The notes under the pieces: model-generated
Databases searched by the model: none
The model's input: only the letters and a program-made list of their open reading frames with translations
Told to the model about the DNA's origin: nothing
Assembly (NCBI GenBank): GCA_000405225.1
Contig: ASMP01000001.1
Location: 892 to 64,891, forward strand
Source of the DNA: Nanoarchaeota archaeon SCGC AAA011-D5
Lineage (GTDB): Archaea; Nanobdellota; Nanobdellia; Pacearchaeales; GW2011-AR1
Length of the DNA stretch: 64,000 bases
Direction: 5' to 3'
Program-made: the position numbers and the translations under genes
In this document: in pieces, positions 752 to 52,945 of the stretch
Position numbering within the stretch: position 1 is the first letter of the stretch
Layout: each line of letters opens with the position of its first letter

Positions 752-1774
752 ATGGCTGCAAAATCCGATGCAAAGGAGATAAAGGAAGCTGTTTCTGATG
801 AAAACGAGCAAGAGAAAAAAGAGCCCAAACTGACTGACCTGCCTGGAGTTGGCCCTGCTGTTGCTGCAAAGCTGGAAAGTGCAGGAATTTATGACTTAAT
901 GTCAATTGCAGTAATTACTCCTTCTGATTTGGCTGAAGTCGCAGGAGTAAGTCCGGCTGTTGCAAGGAAAGTAATTCAGGCAGCGAGAAAAATGCTCGAC
1001 CTTGGGTTTGTCGATGGAACAGAGTATGCAAAGAAGAGGGAGAGCATACATTACATTACTACAGGAAGCAAAAACTTTGATGCGCTTTTGGGCGGAAGAG
1101 GAGTTGAAAGTAGGTCGATAACAGAGGCTTTCGGAGCATATGGTTCTGGAAAAACCCAAGTTGGTTTGACATTGGCTGTGAATGTCCAGCTGCCTATAGA
1201 ACAGGGAGGGGCTAACGGAAAATGTGTGTTCATAGACACAGAAGGAACCTTCAGACCTTCTAGAATAAAACAAATAGCTGAAAAATTAGGAGCAAGTCCA
1301 GAGAAGGTTCTGAAAAACATTTTTGTGGCCCGTGCCTTCAATTCAGACCACCAGATTCTTCTTCTGGATAAAATCTCAGAGATGATAAAAGAAGGAGAGC
1401 CTATAAAATTAATGATTATTGATTCCCTGACAGCCCATTTCAGGGCAGAATTCACAGGACGCGGTCAGTTGGCAGACAGGCAGCAAAAATTAAATCGTTA
1501 TATACATCAGCTGATGAAGCTCGCAGAAACATATAATCTTGCGGTTTATGTCACAAACCAGGTAATGGCAAATCCCGCACAGATGTTTGGAGACCCAACG
1601 ACAGCCATAGGAGGGCATATCGTGGGACACGCCTCAACTTACAGGCTTTATCTAAGAAGGGGAAAAGGGGGAAGCAGGGTCGCAAAACTCATAGACAGCC
1701 CAAATTTGCCCGATAATGAAACAATTTTCTTTGTTTCTGAAGCAGGGGTTGTTGATGGAAAAGAAGAGGAATGA
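752..1774 (+). CDS. radA: DNA repair and recombination protein RadA
   Basis: N-terminal helix-hairpin-helix LTDLPGVGPAVAAKLESAGI, Walker A GAYGSGKTQ, Walker B LMIIDS; 340 aa, collinear with archaeal RadA/Rad51. Confidence 0.95.
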   Translation: MAAKSDAKEIKEAVSDENEQEKKEPKLTDLPGVGPAVAAKLESAGIYDLMSIAVITPSDLAEVAGVSPAVARKVIQAARKMLDLGFVDGTEYAKKRESIHYITTGSKNFDALLGGRGVESRSITEAFGAYGSGKTQVGLTLAVNVQLPIEQGGANGKCVFIDTEGTFRPSRIKQIAEKLGASPEKVLKNIFVARAFNSDHQILLLDKISEMIKEGEPIKLMIIDSLTAHFRAEFTGRGQLADRQQKLNRYIHQLMKLAETYNLAVYVTNQVMANPAQMFGDPTTAIGGHIVGHASTYRLYLRRGKGGSRVAKLIDSPNLPDNETIFFVSEAGVVDGKEEE

Positions 1775-34208: not shown

Positions 34209-35204
34209 CTATATTCCAAAAATCCTTCTCATAAAATTTTTTTTGTTTCTTTTTATTCTGTAATAAATAACTAAAATCGCTAATGCAATAAGGATAATCA
34301 GTGCTGCTGCAAATACTTTTTCTCTTATTGTTGTTTTTGAGGAAATAATCTCAAAATTATCAGAGGAGCTTGCAGTTTTATCATTATAGATAGCTTTGAC
34401 ATAAAGGACATATTTTCCTATTTTGGTATTTTTGGGAATAGGAATTCTTTTTATGAAGCTGATTTGTGTTTCTATTGCCAGCGATTCTGTTTGTTTAAAT
34501 ATTTCATTTCCCTCGTAATCCCTGATTATGTACTCTATAATAACATCTTTTCTTTCATCAGACACTCCGAGATTAAACAATCTCATTTCTGCCAGAATTT
34601 CTCCGCCCGGAAATATGTCTTTATAACCCCTCAATATTTCCGCTCTTACATCAAGCAGAATGCCTTCTGACTCCACCTCTATAGCAATTAAAACTTCTTT
34701 TCTTATGTCTCCGGAACTTAAGATGATCTTCCCAAGATACAAATCAGGAATTGTATCTTCTCCGACTACAAGGTATATTGATATTGTTTTTGATTCTCCC
34801 GGATTCAAAACAATTATATCCTCCACCTTTACGACAAAGTCCTTAAAGAGATTCTCTATCACAATGTTCATACTCCTGGTCCCGTTATTTGTTATGGTGA
34901 TGTTCTCTGTTTTTACCTGGCCAGGCTTTAATGTGACCGAGATTTGGCTTTTGTCTATTGAGAATAAAGAAACTCCACCTCCTCCTCCTCCTCCTCCACC
35001 GCCAGAAGGAGTTTCTTCTGCAGAGCTTGCAATTGTTACTGAAACAGCAACATTTGAACTTGTTGCGTTTCCAGTTATAGCGTCCCCAGTTACCGCATCT
35101 CCAGTTAAAGTATCTCCTGCCACAGTGCCAATATTTGAATACGCAACAAGAATAATTACTATAATCAAGGAAACAGAAAAAAATTCTTTAGCCCTCTTTT
35201 TCAT
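34209..35204 (-). CDS. secreted, C-terminally anchored surface protein (CARDB/S-layer-domain-like beta modules)
   Basis: N-terminal signal/anchor, repeated TGDA(V/I) motif, Gly10 run, two beta-sandwich-like modules (NPGESKTISIYLVV..., ...), C-terminal TM AAALIILIALAILVIYY + basic tail. Confidence 0.55.
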   Translation of the reverse strand: MKKRAKEFFSVSLIIVIILVAYSNIGTVAGDTLTGDAVTGDAITGNATSSNVAVSVTIASSAEETPSGGGGGGGGGGVSLFSIDKSQISVTLKPGQVKTENITITNNGTRSMNIVIENLFKDFVVKVEDIIVLNPGESKTISIYLVVGEDTIPDLYLGKIILSSGDIRKEVLIAIEVESEGILLDVRAEILRGYKDIFPGGEILAEMRLFNLGVSDERKDVIIEYIIRDYEGNEIFKQTESLAIETQISFIKRIPIPKNTKIGKYVLYVKAIYNDKTASSSDNFEIISSKTTIREKVFAAALIILIALAILVIYYRIKRNKKNFMRRIFGI

Positions 35205-35248
35205 TAAATAGTATGGGAAAAGACATATTTAAAATTTGTTGGAATTAA

Positions 35249-35836
35249 CTACCGTCTTCTCTTTTTTATATTTACAGCAACCAGAATTATCCCTAAAATG
35301 ACTAAAGCTAAGACAATGTAAACAGTATAATTCTTACTTGTTTTTTGCCCGTAAACCGCGCTCTCTGTCGGCTCCCCAACAACCTCAACAGGAATTCTCT
35401 GGGTGAAAGCGCTTGCAACAGTGAAAAATCCCTCTCCCCCACCAGCACCCACCTGAAGAAATGAAGCCTCCATATCATAAACCTTTCCAGGCTCCGCGTT
35501 TTCAGGGATTTTTACCTCTAGGTTGACTGTGACATCATCACTTCCCAAAGGAACAAAATAATCTGTGTTTGAATCTATTATTCTTGCTATTTCATAACCT
35601 TTTGTTATGTTTGCTCTCAGCGTAATGTTTTCATCACCAACCATATTTTGAAGCCCTAAGGAAAAAACTACAGACTCCCCTGAACCCAGCTTAAGAGGGT
35701 TTGTGCTCCAATAAGGCGTTGAGACTCCCGCTGCAGAGGCAGCAGAAATTGTTAAAACTGCTAATAGGAAAAAAGCCAAATGGTTTTTAATGCTGAAATA
35801 TCTTTTTCCGTAGTTGTAAATTTGATTAGTTAACAT
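35249..35836 (-). CDS. secreted, C-terminally anchored small surface protein
   Basis: Signal peptide AFFLLAVLTISAASAAG, one beta-sandwich-like domain, C-terminal TM IVLALVILGIILVAV + KKRRR. Confidence 0.5.
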   Translation of the reverse strand: MLTNQIYNYGKRYFSIKNHLAFFLLAVLTISAASAAGVSTPYWSTNPLKLGSGESVVFSLGLQNMVGDENITLRANITKGYEIARIIDSNTDYFVPLGSDDVTVNLEVKIPENAEPGKVYDMEASFLQVGAGGGEGFFTVASAFTQRIPVEVVGEPTESAVYGQKTSKNYTVYIVLALVILGIILVAVNIKKRRR

Positions 35837-35893
35837 TTTTTATCTTTTTTCTTACTCTTTTATTTCATATCAATAGTTTTCTCTTTTTTATAT

Positions 35894-36832
35894 TTATACT
35901 ATTACCTCTACGACCCATGACCCGTAAAACGATGAAGAGTAAGACTGTGCTGTTGCATCCTGGGGAACTCCCCTCAGACAGAAAAATGCTTGCTCCTGTC
36001 CGGAAGTTTGGTTTACGAAATTCAGCGAGTTATTTCCCTTGGTGAAGTTTGTTCCGTTTAGCTGTTTAGATGTTGCATTTACCATTGTTGAAGCATTTAT
36101 TCCGGCGCCGCACCCGTCTGTTACGTTTCCTACGGTGAAATTGTTTGCGAATATGAACTGCGTTGTAGTTGTTTCTCCCCGAAGATTATAAGCTGTTGTA
36201 TTTATTGTTCCATTTGCAGAGTTTCCTGTATTGTTTAAAAGTATAGGGTCGTTGTTGGAACTGAAGTTTGTCGCACTCAGGTTAAGTGTGGGCCATGTCA
36301 ATGCCGAAGGACTAAGAACCATTGCAGTCAGAAGATTATATGTGAAGTTTGTCGTCGAGTTCTCTGTACTTGCCTCGCTGTTGTCTCTTGCAGAAACATT
36401 GATTGTCCATACACCAAGCTCATCAAAATAATACATGCTTACGTTGCATGTGAACATTTGTCCGTTGCCACCCGAACCAATGTTTGCGCAGGAAGAGTTA
36501 TCCCTGTTTGACTCTCCTGTCCTATTGAACCTTGCTCTTGCACTGCTTAAATTTATGTTTCCAGAGCCATCTGTATCATTCACAGAAAAATTCAGCAGAA
36601 CAGACCGGTATCCCGATTCCAGCGGATTCTGGGATGAAACAGCCAGGACAAAAGGAATTGTCGGGGCTGTGTTTCCTACGGTAATGTTTAAGGATGTTGT
36701 GCCTGTTGTTGCCTCTCCTGTGATTCTTGCCCTGAAATCTTTCCAGAAATCAGAAAAGATATTTGCCGAGATTATTGGGATAATTAGCAAAGATATCATC
36801 AAATAAATAACTAAAATCTCTCCTCTTTTCAT
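35894..36832 (-). CDS. secreted sequon-rich protein; stand-alone paralogue of the last extracellular domain of the 1,820-aa protein
   Basis: 312-aa ORF with signal peptide. From NTAPTIPFVLAV to SSSFYGSW it aligns residue-for-residue with the region NAAPTIPFVLAV...SSSFYGSW of ORF 36890..42352. Confidence 0.7.
   Translation of the reverse strand: MKRGEILVIYLMISLLIIPIISANIFSDFWKDFRARITGEATTGTTSLNITVGNTAPTIPFVLAVSSQNPLESGYRSVLLNFSVNDTDGSGNINLSSARARFNRTGESNRDNSSCANIGSGGNGQMFTCNVSMYYFDELGVWTINVSARDNSEASTENSTTNFTYNLLTAMVLSPSALTWPTLNLSATNFSSNNDPILLNNTGNSANGTINTTAYNLRGETTTTQFIFANNFTVGNVTDGCGAGINASTMVNATSKQLNGTNFTKGNNSLNFVNQTSGQEQAFFCLRGVPQDATAQSYSSSFYGSWVVEVIV
35914..36672 (-). repeat. dispersed repeat copy A (paralogous to 37501..38262)
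   Basis: Includes runs identical to copy B: 36068-36132 = 37655-37719 (65 nt) and 36507-36613 = 38107-38213 (107 nt), separated by strongly diverged blocks. Confidence 0.85.
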
Positions 36833-36889
36833 TCTATTTTTTAAAAGGGTTCTTAGTTTTTAAACATTTCTTCCTTTTTTTATTCATAT

Positions 36890-39800
36890 TCAATTCCTAT
36901 TTTTTTGCTTCCTTTTAGCTCTTGAATACGCTGTCCAGATGTTTCTTTGGTCTCTTTCAAGCAATTCAGCTATTTCGCTGAATTTAAGCCCTCTTTCTTT
37001 CAAGCATACAATAACAGATTCAAGAACTGTTAATTCTTTGTTTTCAAATGTTGATATAGGCAGCATTATGCCCGCCTTTTTCATTTCAAATGGTCCTTTT
37101 TGTTTTTCCGTTGCTTTTTTGTAAGCTGTCCATATTGTCCTTTCGTTTCTTCCAAGTTCTTTTCCTATCTCTCTGTAGTTCATATTTAAGTTTTCTTTCA
37201 TGTACTTTGTTATTGACTCCAATGCTCCGAGTTTCTTTGAGAAGATTGTTACTGGAATGCATAACTCTTCTTTAATTACTTCCAGGATTTCTTTTTTGCT
37301 AACTTTGTATTTTTCCTTTAACTTCTCTGTTATTGTCCTGACCATTTCTCTTTTATTCAAAGAATATTCTTCTTTCAGCTCGTCCATCACTAATCCTAAT
37401 AATTTGATTAACCTGTCGTCTTCAACTTTCTTTTTCCCCCCCTCTTTCTCTCTCTTTCTCTTTTTTCCAGGTATTAATGCAGCCAGCAATACGCGGATTT
37501 CCCATGAACCATAAAATGAAGATGAATATGACTGTGCGGTTATGTCCTGAGGAACACCCCTTAGGCAGAAGAATATCTGTTCCTGTCCTGAAGTCTGGTT
37601 CCCATAATTCAAGGAATTGTTTCCCTTGCTAAAGTTAGTTCCATTTAATTGGCGAGATGTTGCATTTACCATTGTTGAAGCATTTATTCCGGCGCCGCAC
37701 CCGTCTGTTACGTTTCCTATCGTGAAGTTATTTGCGAATATGAACTGCGTTGTAGTTGTTTCTCCACGGAGATTGTATGCTGTCGCGTTTATACTCAGGT
37801 TAAGTGCATTTCCTGTGTTGTTTATTGTTATAGGATTGTTAGTAGCAGTAATGTTTGTATTTGTTAGATTGATTTGGGACGGCCATGTCAATGCCGAAGG
37901 ACTAAGGACCATTGCAGTCAGAAGATTAAATGTAAAATTAGTGGTTGAATTTTCAGCACTTGCCTCGCTGTTGTCTCTTGCAGATACATTGATTGTCCAT
38001 ACACCAAGCTCATCGAAATAATACATGCTTACATTGCATGTGAACATTTGTCCGTTGCCACCAGAACCAATGTTTGCGCATGTAAAGTTCTCCCTATTTG
38101 ACTCTCCTGTCCTATTGAACCTTGCTCTTGCACTGCTTAAATTTATGTTTCCAGAGCCATCTGTATCATTCACAGAAAAATTCAGCAGAACAGACCGGTA
38201 TCCTGCTTCAAGTGGATCCTGAGCAGAAACTGCCAGGACAAAAGGAATTGTCGGGGCTGCATTGTTAACTATTTTAACAACATAACTATTATTCAATCCA
38301 AACTGCCCTGTGGAATCATTGGCATAAACATTTATTGTCCTGTTTCCTTCTGCTAAATTTGTTAAAAACCCATTTGTTATGTTACACCAGCCAGACGAAA
38401 CAGAAACTGTCTGGTTTGTTCCATTTGCGTCAATTTTACAGGCGCTGGGAGAAGTACCTGCATCAGTAACAGAAATATTTAATGTTAAAGTTTCTGTACT
38501 TGCCTTTATTGTGGCGTTTGCATAAAATGGGATGGTGATTGCCGGAGCAACTGTATCTATTGTTATTGTTCTGTTTGTTGAATTAAAGGCACAATTTCCT
38601 GCTTCATCACAAGTCTCTGCATTCCATAGATAAACACCATCAGAAGAAAAAGTATTATCCCAAGAAGTTGAGTTTGATGTTCCTGTAATGTTAGATGTTA
38701 TTATTCCACTGAATTTGTATGTTCTAAGCTGTTCGTTTACAGTATCAATAAACGCCACTCTTGTTGAATTTAGGCCGGCTAATGCAGGGGCACTAACACC
38801 TGAAATTGATAGACTGTTTCCTATTTGAGACCAATCTGTCCCATTCCAATTATATGTTCTAAGATTGTCATTTGTATCATCAATAAATGCCACTCTTGTT
38901 GAATTTAAGCTGGCTAATGCAGGGGCACCAGTAAGTAAAATTGATAGACTATTTCCCACTAGAGACCAGTCTGTTCCATTCCAATTATATGTTCTAAGAT
39001 TGTCATTTGTATCATCAATAAATGCCACTCTTGTTGAATTTAAGCTGGCTAATGCAGGGGCACCAGTAAGTGAAATTGATAGACTATTTCCCGCTTGAGA
39101 CCAATCTGTTCCATTCCAATTATATGTTCTAAGCTGTTCATTTGTCTCATCAATAAATGCCACTCTTGTTGAATTTAAGCCGGCTAATGCAGAGGCACCA
39201 ACACCTGCAATTGGTAGATTATTTCCCACTCGAGACCAATCTGTTCCATTCCAATTATATGTACTAAGATTGTCATTTGCAGAATCAATAAATGCCACTC
39301 TTGTTAAATTTAAGCTGGCTAATGCCGGAGTACCACCTGTAATTGATAGATTATTTCCTACTTGAGACCAATCTGTTCCATTCCAATTATATGTACTAAG
39401 CCTGTCATTTGCAGAATCAATAAATGCCACTCTTGTTGAATTTAAGCCGGCTAATGCAGGGCCACCAGCACCAATACCTGAAATTAATCGATTATTTCCC
39501 ACTTGAGACCAAATAAATGCCGCGTTTGTTGAATTGTAATCTATCAACACCCCATTACTATCCCAAATATTCAAAGTAGAATTCTTCAAATTAATATTAT
39601 CTGTCTGATTAAAAACAAAAATTCTTGTTGAATTATTTGAAAAAGTGTTGTTATCTGGAGAATAAAAGTTGGTTACTGGACTTGTCGTGTCTATCTGAAC
39701 AACAAATGAATTATTCAACCCAAACTGCCCTGTAGAGTCATTCGCATACACATTTATTGTTCTGTTTCCAGATGCTAAATTAGTAAGGAATCCGTTTGTT

Positions 39801-51931: not shown

Positions 51932-51967
51932 TTGTTACTTCTTTAAAAGAACAACGAAATAGAAATA

Positions 51968-51975
51968 TTTATAAA
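51968..51975 (+). promoter_or_regulatory. TATA-box-like TTTATAAA upstream of ORF 51997 (possible leaderless transcript)
   Basis: TTTATAAA ends 22 nt before ATG 51997, the spacing expected if transcription starts at or next to the start codon. Confidence 0.35.
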
Positions 51976-51996
51976 CATTATATTCTGATAAAAATC

Positions 51997-52878
51997 ATGG
52001 TTACAGAAACAAAACCAGCATTCAAAGGAAGGCCATTAGTGGAAATATCATCAGTAGTTCCTCAAATAGGACTTTTGGAAGGAGATTTTGGTAAAGCATT
52101 CCTTGAAGAATATCAAGGAAGAATGAATTCTGATTATAATGGAAACTCTACATTGAATGTTCTTAGATATAATGGAAATGTAGTTACTGGATCAAATCCA
52201 TTTTCTGTAGTTCTTGCAAATCAAATTCTTAGACAAGAAGGCTTGAGAACAGCTTCCCAAGCAGACTTAGAAACAGCTATGAGGATTGGAGCTATGAATT
52301 TCAGAGGAACATATGAAGACACAGCTTTAGTTTTGAGAACAGAAGATGATAAAGACTATTCAAGAAATACCCATTTAGCTAAAGACTTAGGAAGACAACT
52401 TAAAGAAAGGGGATTAAAATTCGGAGCTAAAAGCCCTGTAGTTATTCCTTTGACTGGTCTGGATCTTCAAAGAGCAGAAAATGAATATGGTTTGACATTC
52501 AAATTAAGAGAAGACGCAGAATTTTACGAAGCACCTATTTTGACAAAAGAAGGAAACTTCAATTCAGAAGATATTGATGAAAGAACAGGATTGCCAAAAC
52601 AAGTTAAAGGTGGAAATAGAACTCTTTACTCTAGAAATTCTGGGCTTTCCGGGTTGTTCTTGTACGGCGGCCTGGACCTGTACTCGTACTACGGGTACTT
52701 GGACTTCTCCTTTGAGTATGGCAGGGTGGTTCTTGTTAGCGCCGCAGGCGCGCGCGCCGATTTTGACCAAAGGCTGACAGGACTTGAAACTCAAAGACAA
52801 GAAGCACATCAGGCATATCTTGCTAAATTATCCCAATTAAGAGATAACATAGACAGTGAACTTAAGAGATCACAGTAA
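51997..52878 (+). CDS. hypothetical protein containing a local high-GC3 patch
   Basis: ORF-track start 51928 overlaps the upstream gene; ATG 51997 (MVTETKPAFKG) sits behind a TATA-like box; no motif recognised; coiled-coil-like C-terminus. Confidence 0.5.
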   Translation: MVTETKPAFKGRPLVEISSVVPQIGLLEGDFGKAFLEEYQGRMNSDYNGNSTLNVLRYNGNVVTGSNPFSVVLANQILRQEGLRTASQADLETAMRIGAMNFRGTYEDTALVLRTEDDKDYSRNTHLAKDLGRQLKERGLKFGAKSPVVIPLTGLDLQRAENEYGLTFKLREDAEFYEAPILTKEGNFNSEDIDERTGLPKQVKGGNRTLYSRNSGLSGLFLYGGLDLYSYYGYLDFSFEYGRVVLVSAAGARADFDQRLTGLETQRQEAHQAYLAKLSQLRDNIDSELKRSQ

Positions 52879-52945
52879 TCTGTTAAATTTATAAAATATT
52901 TTTTCTTTATATTATTCCTAGCCAATGCTTATTTAATCTACAACC

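What the first reader, a model, noticed from the sequence alone, without database searches (positions are those of the whole stretch)
35914..38262. Mosaic paralogous cassette: a stand-alone copy of the giant's terminal ectodomain lies just downstream, with perfect-identity blocks flanking a hypervariable patch
Seen: 35914-36672 (in the 312-aa gene) and 37501-38262 (in the 1,820-aa gene) are collinear. Two blocks are identical: 65 nt (36068-36132 = 37655-37719) and 107 nt (36507-36613 = 38107-38213). Between them lie segments too diverged to align base by base (about 36150-36300 vs 37750-37900). There the proteins read PTLNLSATNFSSNNDPILLNNTGNSANGTINTTAY versus PSQINLTNTNITATNNPITINNTGNALNLSINATAY. 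Established: alternating identical and diverged blocks between adjacent paralogues are the footprint of gene conversion. Expressed-locus-plus-donor-cassette layouts underlie surface antigen variation in several bacteria. Inference: this is a recombination-based system for varying the distal, sequon-rich domain of the adhesin. Such a system has not, to my knowledge, been described for DPANN-type archaea.
Basis: partly seen in the sequence, partly recalled or inferred. Interest (0 to 1): 0.6.

Follow-up and report, generated by a model that had tools for sequence, protein, structure and literature searches.

The report
Gene conversion between paired archaeal surface genes
In this tiny groundwater archaeon (Pacearchaeota, DPANN), a small secreted protein and the last two domains of the neighbouring giant surface protein are an old gene pair that keeps copying short stretches onto each other; this is ordinary gene conversion in an uncharacterised pair, not a cassette system for surface variation.

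Summary
The 312-aa gene (35894-36832, minus strand) is collinear with residues 1361-1623 of the 1,820-aa gene (36890-42352, minus strand). Overall nucleotide identity is 83%, with exact runs of 107 nt and 65 nt (permutation p<5e-5).

Gene conversion is strongly supported:
- Synonymous sites are saturated in three segments, including the patch, but dS is only 0.09-0.23 between them.
- The giant-plus-small pair is syntenic in at least 16 genomes of several families.
- The copies cluster by genome, not by locus (AU test p=1e-91).
- Identical tracts lie at different places in different strains.
- Transfers run in both directions.

The donor-cassette reading is not supported:
- The small gene has a conserved archaeal TATA box, a start codon and a Sec signal peptide.
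- It is under purifying selection (dN/dS 0.13).
- It is the only other copy in the 547-kb assembly.
- The patch is not hypervariable. It is a locus-specific signature shared across related strains, and all five glycosylation sequons keep their positions.
- About 15 distinct small genes were examined, and only one carries the giant-type patch.

A diversity-generating retroelement (DGR) is excluded.

The parts
36890..42352 (-). Giant surface-protein gene, 1,820 aa. It has an N-terminal cytoplasmic stretch and a membrane helix near aa 91-112. The ectodomain carries Big_3 Ig-like domains and six 45-aa tandem repeats. It ends with the two-domain module shared with the small gene and then a 197-aa basic tail with HTH / sigma-70 region-4-like repeats.
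   Evidence: ORF list and translation; Pfam Big_3_3 and Sigma70_r4_2; 77 N-x-S/T sequons, none in residues 1-112 or in the tail.
37484..38272 (-). G copy: giant residues 1361-1623, two Ig-like domains, paralogous to the small gene.
   Evidence: Protein and codon alignments; 85% amino-acid identity and 83% nucleotide identity.
35894..36832 (-). Small gene S, 312 aa: a secreted, anchorless protein of two Ig-like beta-sandwich domains (aa 55-165 and 170-312), with 23 sequons and 4 conserved cysteines.
   Evidence: Translation; AlphaFold2 model, mean pLDDT 85.9; Foldseek finds generic tandem Ig/FnIII folds; 140 homologues, all hypothetical proteins of Pacearchaeota/Nanoarchaeota; no Pfam or PDB sequence match.
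35897..36682 (-). S copy: small-gene residues 51-312, the stretch homologous to the giant.
36764..36832 (-). Sec-type signal peptide of S (aa 1-23, ending ...ISA), followed by the conserved mature N-terminus (N/G)(I/F)FSDFWGKITG(K/E)ATSGTT.
   Evidence: Alignment of 17 small-gene N-termini; S22, A23 and N24 are nearly invariant. The cleavage site is inferred.
36857..36864 (-). TTTAAAAA, an archaeal TATA box 25-32 nt before the ATG of S, inside the 57-nt spacer 36833-36889. It implies a separate, leaderless or short-leader transcript.
   Evidence: The motif (A/T)AAT(A/G)TTTAAAAA(C/G) stands at about the same distance before the small gene in most of the 16 relatives listed. Its function is inferred from the archaeal promoter consensus and was not measured.
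36507..36613 (-). 107-nt block of S that is identical to 38097-38203 in the giant; the most recent conversion tract.
   Evidence: p<5e-5.
38097..38203 (-).
36068..36132 (-). 65-nt block of S identical to 37655-37719 in the giant.
37655..37719 (-). Giant-side partner of the 65-nt block.
36191..36292 (-). S-type patch (aa 181-214), covering predicted beta-strands 188-191, 197-201 and 208-214 and their loops near the start of the second Ig-like domain. It is an old, unconverted segment.
   Evidence: Synonymous sites are saturated (20.5 changes at 25.2 sites) and dN is 0.35. The S type is kept in 13 of 14 close small genes. Strand positions come from the model.
37778..37882 (-). G-type patch (giant aa 1491-1525), one residue longer (PSQ/PSP). 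All five sequon positions are kept.
   Evidence: The extra residue and the PSP(I/V)NLT signature occur in all giant copies of the close clade except P0008's, which lacks the extra residue.
35897..36067 (-). 3' part of the S copy (aa 256-312): synonymous sites saturated, amino acids conserved. It shows the real age of the pair.
   Evidence: 29.5 synonymous changes at 33.7 sites and dN 0.084 over aa 256-306.
36338..36367 (-). Ten-codon island (aa 156-165) in which most codons differ at a synonymous site: a short unconverted remnant between two converted tracts.
34209..35836 (-). Two further surface-protein genes (195 aa and 331 aa, each with a signal peptide and a C-terminal membrane anchor). 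They follow S in the same order in relatives.
   Evidence: Translations; the same 195/331-aa neighbours occur in contigs L041, L043, L045, L046 and L047.
752..1774 (+). RadA recombinase gene, the likely enzyme behind the conversion (inferred).
   Evidence: Rad51/RadA family match at 315 bits at genome C1:1925-2647, which is window 1034-1756.

Best explanation
The small gene and the giant's last two Ig-like domains form an ancient, conserved pair of tandem paralogues. Both are expressed surface or secreted glycoproteins. They evolve in concert through recurrent, short-tract gene conversion that runs in both directions.

The proposed mechanism is homologous recombination (RadA is encoded in the window) between two direct repeats 1.59 kb apart. 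It copies tens to a few hundred nucleotides from one copy onto the other without crossing over. Recently converted stretches are identical or nearly so. Stretches that escaped conversion are saturated at synonymous sites: aa 156-165, the patch aa 181-214, and aa 256-312.

The patch is not a hypermutated region. It is the part that keeps each locus distinct (S type versus G type), it lies near the start of the second Ig-like domain, and conversion almost always spares it.

The conversion, its recurrence and its two directions are shown. The role of RadA is inferred. It is also inferred that the small protein works together with the giant's matching module, either as a partner subunit or on the same ligand or assembly. 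On that reading selection tolerates or favours likeness everywhere except in the patch.
For: (1) The mosaic is statistically real. Exact runs of 107 and 65 nt have p<5e-5, and synonymous changes are clustered with z=-4.0.
(2) By Nei-Gojobori counts, synonymous sites are saturated in the patch, in aa 156-165 and in aa 256-306, but dS is 0.09-0.23 in between. Overall dN/dS is 0.13.
(3) The giant followed by a roughly 305-360-aa paralogue occurs in 17 of 61 related genomes, in six genera of four families. Spacers are tight.
(4) In a maximum-likelihood tree of 34 copies, the small and giant copies pair by genome with support 90-100 in nine pairs: G002, G006a, G006b, G016, G025, G036, G052, G009 and the G000 clade. 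The AU test rejects one clade of small genes (delta lnL 532, p=1e-91).
(5) Ten of 15 genome pairs have exact runs of 34-128 nt with p<=0.0005.
(6) Among six close strains the tracts lie at different columns, and two strains have none (69% identity). The blocks therefore do not reflect a nucleotide-level constraint. In the same blocks the orthologues G000 and G009 differ at many synonymous sites.
(7) Segment trees give direction. The first domain of the giant in G000, G023 and G009 nests inside the small-gene clade, while the giants of P0006, P0008 and P0009 keep a separate G type (support 100). That requires at least two S-to-G transfers. P0004's small gene carries a G-type tract of about 150 nt that is 95-98% identical to this giant, which is a G-to-S transfer.
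(8) The small gene is a working gene. It has a conserved TATA box, a Sec signal peptide and a conserved mature N-terminus, and a confident two-domain fold.
(9) RadA is present.
Against: Within-population switching frequency is therefore unknown, and the single patch recombinant (P0004, a 1,533-nt metagenome contig) could be an assembly chimera formed across shared sequence. Expression of the small gene is inferred from sequence only. Nothing here tests whether the patch is spared because of selection or because its divergence and 3-nt indel block heteroduplex formation. The proposed physical partnership between the small protein and the giant is untested. The AU test's grouping is the natural prior hypothesis (orthology by locus), but it was run after the tree had been seen.
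Confidence: 0.85

Rival explanations
1. Programmed surface variation: the small gene serves as a donor cassette whose segments are copied into the expressed giant (or the reverse) to change the exposed domain, as in pilE/pilS or vlsE.
For: Conversion between the two loci is real and recurrent. One relative's small gene carries the giant-type patch. The giant's patch is itself a mosaic of G-specific and S-like sub-tracts in different strains. Surface variation would be useful to an episymbiont.
Against: There is only one partner copy in the 547-kb assembly. The small gene has a promoter, a start codon and a signal peptide and is under purifying selection. Transfers go both ways. Conversion homogenises the copies and spares the very patch that differs. 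13 of 14 close small genes, and all 11 small-gene loci in the metagenome census, keep the S-type patch. All five sequons in the patch keep their positions. No special cis element or recombinase lies nearby.
Confidence: 0.07
2. Assembly artefact: the identical blocks let the assembler switch between the two loci, producing false mosaics in this genome and in P0004.
For: The exact blocks (65-128 nt) are longer than many assembly k-mers. Several related contigs break right at the pair, for example L041, which starts 26 nt before the small gene. P0004 sits on a 1.5-kb contig.
Against: The same layout, with locus-specific patch types at the expected locus, recurs in more than 20 independent assemblies from different samples and pipelines. 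Path switching cannot create shared derived synonymous changes within a genome, such as the 100% identity of G009's S and G copies where both differ from G000. The window lies on a 273-kb contig.
Confidence: 0.03
3. Plain duplication and drift: one recent duplication, with uneven constraint explaining the conserved and diverged blocks.
For: The patch coincides with one of the less conserved parts of the family.
Against: Synonymous divergence ranges from saturated to about 0.1 within 780 nt. The pair is syntenic across families, so the duplication is old. Orthologues differ at synonymous sites inside the blocks that are identical within a genome. The tree clusters by genome.
Confidence: 0.02
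4. Diversity-generating retroelement: one copy is the template repeat and the other the variable repeat.
For: DGRs are known in DPANN archaea (my own knowledge of the literature). The genome has one reverse transcriptase gene.
Against: Mismatches are not adenine-specific: 32 and 36 of 134 involve A in either copy, in line with base composition, and 71 are transitions against 63 transversions. The reverse transcriptase lies about 54 kb away at genome C1:91595-92122. No other copy of either patch exists in the genome.
Confidence: 0.01

Closest known systems
Concerted evolution of linked paralogues by intrachromosomal gene conversion. Examples: the Helicobacter pylori babA/babB adhesin genes, Salmonella tufA/tufB and archaeal chaperonin subunit genes (from my own knowledge); the Staphylococcus aureus tandem lpl lipoprotein cluster (PMC2568036, listed).
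   Same: Two functional paralogues in one genome exchange short tracts by homologous recombination. Trees group copies by genome. Synonymous divergence is mosaic. Some segments stay locus-specific.
   Different: Here one partner is a module inside a 1,820-aa protein and the other is a free-standing secreted protein. The organism is a DPANN archaeon and the protein family is uncharacterised. The pair is conserved across several families.
Plasmodium falciparum DBLMSP/DBLMSP2: gene conversion between two neighbouring paralogous surface antigens (PMC10919680).
   Same: There are exactly two expressed, adjacent surface-protein paralogues. Conversion moves sequence types between loci, so a type usual at one locus sometimes appears at the other.
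   Different: That system is eukaryotic and sexual and is maintained by host immune selection. No evidence was obtained here for balancing selection or for dimorphic alleles within a population.
Silent-cassette antigenic variation (Neisseria pilE/pilS, Borrelia vlsE, Anaplasma msp2, Mycoplasma genitalium MgPar); from my own knowledge.
   Same: Non-reciprocal recombination changes part of a surface protein using a nearby homologous sequence.
   Different: Those systems use many promoterless, truncated donors, transfer in one direction, and vary at high frequency in the variable region. None of these features is met here.
Diversity-generating retroelements of DPANN archaea and CPR bacteria (from my own knowledge).
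   Same: They provide targeted variation of surface proteins in the same group of organisms.
   Different: They rely on a reverse-transcriptase-driven, adenine-specific mechanism, which searches exclude.
Tandem Ig-like/FnIII secreted proteins such as Vibrio cholerae RbmA and antibody light chains (Foldseek hits).
   Same: The fold is the same: two beta-sandwich domains in tandem in a small secreted protein.
   Different: There is no detectable sequence relationship and TM-scores are low (0.2-0.3). The similarity is at the level of fold class only.

Membership tests
Concerted evolution by ectopic gene conversion | Paralogues group by genome rather than by locus, although the duplication predates the species. 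| tested here: met
   Tree of 34 copies; AU test p=1e-91; the pair is syntenic in 17 genomes of six genera.
Concerted evolution by ectopic gene conversion | Mosaic divergence: significantly long identical tracts on a diverged background, with heterogeneous synonymous divergence. | tested here: met
Concerted evolution by ectopic gene conversion | Tracts are lineage-specific events, not sites of nucleotide-level constraint. | tested here: met
   Tract positions differ among six strains and two strains have none; orthologues differ inside the blocks.
Concerted evolution by ectopic gene conversion | Homologous recombination machinery is present. | tested here: met
   RadA at 315 bits plus a RadA paralogue. 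Its involvement is inferred.
Silent-cassette antigenic variation | The donor is silent: no promoter, no start codon, and truncated. | tested here: not met
   Conserved TATA box; ATG and Sec signal peptide; intact ORF in all relatives. Expression itself was not measured.
Silent-cassette antigenic variation | There is a repertoire of several donor cassettes. | tested here: not met
   Only two copies by protein and DNA search of the 547-kb assembly, which is 76% complete.
Silent-cassette antigenic variation | Transfer is one-way, from donor to expression site. | tested here: not met
   S-to-G transfer in the first domain and G-to-S transfer in P0004's patch.
Silent-cassette antigenic variation | Variation among strains or cells is concentrated in the variable region. 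| tested here: not met
   The patch is 75% identical among 12 small-gene orthologues, against 81-88% elsewhere. 13 of 14 keep the S type.
Silent-cassette antigenic variation | Switching occurs at high frequency within one population. | not testable with these tools
Diversity-generating retroelement | Template and variable repeats differ only at template adenines. | tested here: not met
   Mismatch spectrum.
Diversity-generating retroelement | A reverse transcriptase with a template repeat lies next to the target or matches it. | tested here: not met
   The only reverse transcriptase is about 54 kb away, and no third copy of the patch exists.

The most novel reading that the evidence does not exclude
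The two-gene module is a minimal two-locus exchange system. Occasional transfer of the patch and of neighbouring sub-tracts between the secreted protein and the giant creates a small set of surface combinations within natural populations. Selection at the interface with the host cell of this episymbiotic archaeon would maintain that set. This would be comparable to DBLMSP/DBLMSP2 in Plasmodium and would be the first recombination-based surface variation described in DPANN archaea.
Probability: 0.1. Interest if true: 0.65.

Novelty: new member of a known kind. Interest (0 to 1): 0.38.

Why it matters
DPANN archaea depend on contact with other cells, and their giant surface proteins are almost entirely uncharacterised. 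This work shows that one giant family always travels with a free secreted copy of its last two domains. It also shows that the two copies have been kept alike by gene conversion across several families of one order. Together these results suggest a functional partnership between the two proteins, which is a concrete hypothesis for structural or biochemical work. The work also adds a clear archaeal example of domain-level concerted evolution. It warns that such pairs are likely points of contig breaks and chimeras in metagenome assemblies. It does not reveal a new mechanism.

Tried and rejected
I used related metagenome contigs instead.
- DGR: rejected by the mismatch spectrum and by the absence of a template repeat.
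- Further silent cassettes: none found by tblastn or blastn over the whole assembly, even at relaxed thresholds.
- Class III (pilin-type) signal peptide on the small protein, suggested by 'KRG-EILV': rejected. The KRG is not conserved, whereas a Sec-type ...SA(G/N) site followed by FFSDFWGKITG is conserved.
- Naming the fold from sequence: no Pfam family for any of 64 members beyond scattered chance hits, and no PDB sequence match. Foldseek gives only generic tandem Ig/FnIII hits.
- Positive selection on the patch: it cannot be claimed, because synonymous sites there are saturated and dN is only 0.35.
- GC-biased conversion: GC content is the same in converted and unconverted parts, 0.43 in both.
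- A fused-chain AlphaFold run to test small-protein/giant pairing was considered and not run, because the tool returns neither coordinates nor an error map, so an interface could not be judged.
- Literature search for this system in DPANN or Pacearchaeota found nothing.
Full report
**1. What is in the sequence**

Both genes lie on the minus strand. The giant is 36890-42352 (1,820 aa). The small gene, called S here, is 35894-36832 (312 aa) and begins 57 nt after the giant's stop codon.

The repeat finder reports two collinear direct-repeat pieces. They are 36291-36590 = 37881-38180 (93%, offset 1590) and 35914-36205 = 37501-37792 (83%, offset 1587). The offsets differ because of a 3-nt indel in the patch.

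At protein level, S residues 51-312 align with giant residues 1361-1623 at 85% identity. Upstream of that, S has only a leader. Downstream, the giant continues into a 197-aa basic tail, while S stops.

The codon alignment has 783 nt and 134 differences (82.9% identity). Its exact runs are:
- 107 nt: 36507-36613 = 38097-38203.

Neither run was reached in 20,000 shuffles that keep codon position. Synonymous changes are clustered (runs test z=-4.0).

**2. The mosaic reflects age differences, not hypermutation**

| Segment (S residues) | Synonymous changes / sites, or dS | dN |
|---|---|---|
| aa 156-165 | 8 / 6.7 (saturated) | 0.091 |
| Patch, aa 181-214 | 20.5 / 25.2 (saturated) | 0.35 |
| aa 256-306 | 29.5 / 33.7 (saturated) | 0.084 |
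| Stretches between these segments | dS 0.09-0.23 | 0-0.016 |

These are Nei-Gojobori counts; overall dN/dS is 0.13. The background is therefore an old, constrained pair of paralogues, and the near-identical blocks are recent overwrites.

The patch is one of three unconverted remnants. It has the weakest amino-acid constraint of the three, but all five N-x-S/T sequons inside it stay at the same positions in both copies.

**3. The pair is old and conserved**

The genome is a 547-kb, 13-contig assembly, 76% complete. It encodes TFB, and its homologues are named Pacearchaeota or Nanoarchaeota.

A search of 61 relatives finds the module in 17 genomes of six genera and four families. In nearly all of them a gene of about 305-360 aa sits immediately downstream of a giant whose last module matches it. 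In close relatives the same two anchored surface-protein genes (about 195 aa, then 324-561 aa) follow S.

**4. Concerted evolution**

A maximum-likelihood tree of 17 small-gene copies and 17 giant copies pairs them by genome with support 90-100. The pairs are G002, G006a, G006b, G016, G025, G036, G052, G009 and the G000 clade. Only the closely related G013 and G030 keep small genes with small genes and giants with giants. The S/G label needs 13 changes on the tree, no fewer than shuffled labels need.

Forcing the small genes into one clade costs 532 log-likelihood units (AU p=1e-91).

At DNA level, 10 of 15 genome pairs have exact runs of 34-128 nt with p<=0.0005.

**5. The blocks are events, not constrained sites**

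In six close strains the exact tracts of 30 nt or more fall at different alignment columns:

| Strain | Exact tracts (alignment columns) |
|---|---|
| G000 | 70-176, 508-542, 554-618 |
| L049 (nearest strain) | 39-98, 128-158, 196-239, 314-348 |
| L052 | 148-182, 340-377, 665-722 |
| L054 | 28-155, 177-212, 298-344, 655-696 |
| L051, L053 | none; only 69% identity between the copies |

The patch columns are never inside a tract.

Where G000's copies are identical, the orthologues G000 and G009 differ at many synonymous sites. G009's own two copies are 100% identical there.

**6. Direction of transfer**

In the first Ig-like domain, the giants of P0006, P0008 and P0009 form a separate G-type clade (support 100). 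The giants of G000, G023 and G009 nest inside the small-gene clade next to their own or nearest small gene (support 99-100). That needs at least two S-to-G transfers.

In the patch, small genes group together with two exceptions:
- P0004's small gene sits in the S locus: the giant's tail lies upstream and the next gene downstream begins after the same 57-nt spacing as in the window. Over about 150 nt it is 95-98% identical to this window's giant and 58-85% identical to this window's small gene. This is a G-to-S transfer of the patch.
- P0008's small gene pairs with its own giant.

Caveat: P0004 lies on a 1.5-kb contig, so an assembly chimera cannot be excluded without reads.

**7. The patch is a locus signature**

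Among 12 small-gene orthologues (72-94% identical overall) the patch is 75% identical, against 81-88% elsewhere. Against this window's giant it is 57% identical, versus 85-90% elsewhere.

The S type (PT-LNL(S/T)ATN(F/I)SSNNDP...NS(A/G)NGTIN) is present in 13 of 14 close small genes and in all 11 small-gene loci of the metagenome census. Giant loci nearly always carry the extra residue (PS(P/Q)(I/V)NLT...); P0008's giant is the exception. The rest of their patch varies and partly resembles the S type.

**8. The small gene is a working gene**

- A TTTAAAAA box stands 25-32 nt before its ATG (36857-36864). The motif recurs at about that distance in most of the 16 relatives listed.
- All 17 N-termini collected from genomes have a Sec-type signal peptide ending ...SA(G/N), followed by a conserved FFSDFWGKITG(K/E)ATSGTT.
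- AlphaFold2 with 64 homologues gives two beta-sandwich domains, aa 55-165 and 170-312, at mean pLDDT 85.9.
- Foldseek returns only generic tandem Ig/FnIII proteins. There is no Pfam or PDB sequence match.
- Four cysteines are conserved and there are 23 sequons.

**9. Rivals**

- DGR: the mismatches are not adenine-specific. The only reverse transcriptase is about 54 kb away, and no third copy of either patch exists.
- Further cassettes: none found.
- Plain drift: refuted by sections 2, 4 and 5.
- Assembly artefact: unlikely, because more than 20 independent assemblies show the same layout. It remains open for P0004.
- Programmed variation: the defining features of cassette systems that could be tested were not met.

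**10. Mechanism and function**

RadA is encoded at window 752-1774. I infer RadA-dependent, non-crossover recombination between the two direct repeats. A crossover between them would delete the giant's tail and the small gene's leader, which may explain why only conversion products are seen.

The small protein lacks an anchor and has been kept like the giant's last module for a long time. My working hypothesis, which is an inference, is that it acts with that module as a partner subunit or on the same structure, and that the patch marks the functional difference between the two.

**11. Comparison and novelty**

The pair behaves like known cases of concerted evolution of linked paralogues, and resembles the two-paralogue exchange of DBLMSP/DBLMSP2 (PMC10919680). 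It is not a member of the silent-cassette systems. Searches of the literature found no description for DPANN or Pacearchaeota.

Earlier notes of this scan on other genomes reached the same reading. I treated them as leads and re-derived the evidence here.

Verdict: a new member of a known kind, of moderate interest.

Noticed in passing
window 36890-37483 (giant residues 1624-1820): After the shared module every giant continues with a conserved W-E-I-(R/K)-(I/V)-L-L-V-A-(V/L)-I-P stretch, a run of K/R, and a tail of about 200 aa with two sigma-70 region-4/HTH-like repeats. The hydrophobic stretch has only about 9-10 residues, so a membrane span is doubtful. Yet the tail and the first 112 residues have no sequons, against 77 in between, which hints that the tail is cytoplasmic.
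   Followed up: partly
window 36833-36889: S is in the same reading frame as the giant, here and in P0004, P0005, P0006, P0008 and G025, but not in G013 or G002. The spacer holds three in-frame stops including the giant's own, so a read-through fusion is unlikely.
   Followed up: partly
locus L046, 3393-4335: In one relative (P0009's contig) a nucleotidyltransferase (NTP_transf_2/Polbeta) gene and a 61-aa gene, which look like a toxin-antitoxin pair, are inserted between the giant and the small gene. The small gene survives 1.3 kb away from the giant.
   Followed up: no
window 51932-52926, and genome C1:90130-91124 (outside the window): A roughly 1-kb coding element has four diverged copies in the genome (89%, 78% and 73% identity to the copy at C1:90130-91124). 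Its first 50-100 nt recur at more than ten further places. One full copy lies directly upstream of the genome's only reverse transcriptase gene (C1:91595-92122). Mismatches are not adenine-specific.
   Followed up: partly
window 38659-39470: The six 45-aa tandem repeats in the giant include pairs of units that are 88-91% identical at DNA level. Intragenic homogenisation therefore also acts inside the giant.
   Followed up: no
window 35254-35274 and 35876-35896: A 21-nt motif (on the minus strand TAAATATAAAAAAGAGAA(A/G)AC, starting with the stop codon) follows both the small gene and the next gene (195 aa). It may be a shared 3'-end signal or the next promoter.
   Followed up: no
window 34209-35204 and 36700-36770: An I/L-T-G motif follows the signal peptide or anchor in several neighbouring surface proteins: S has WGKITGEAT-like, the 331-aa protein has LTGDAVTGDAITGNATS, and the giant has ALTGFFV. 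It may be a lineage-specific processing or sorting signal.
   Followed up: no
loci L041, L056, L057, L058: Several metagenome contigs of relatives begin or end within a few nucleotides of the giant/small-gene pair. The repeat evidently breaks short-read assemblies.
   Followed up: no
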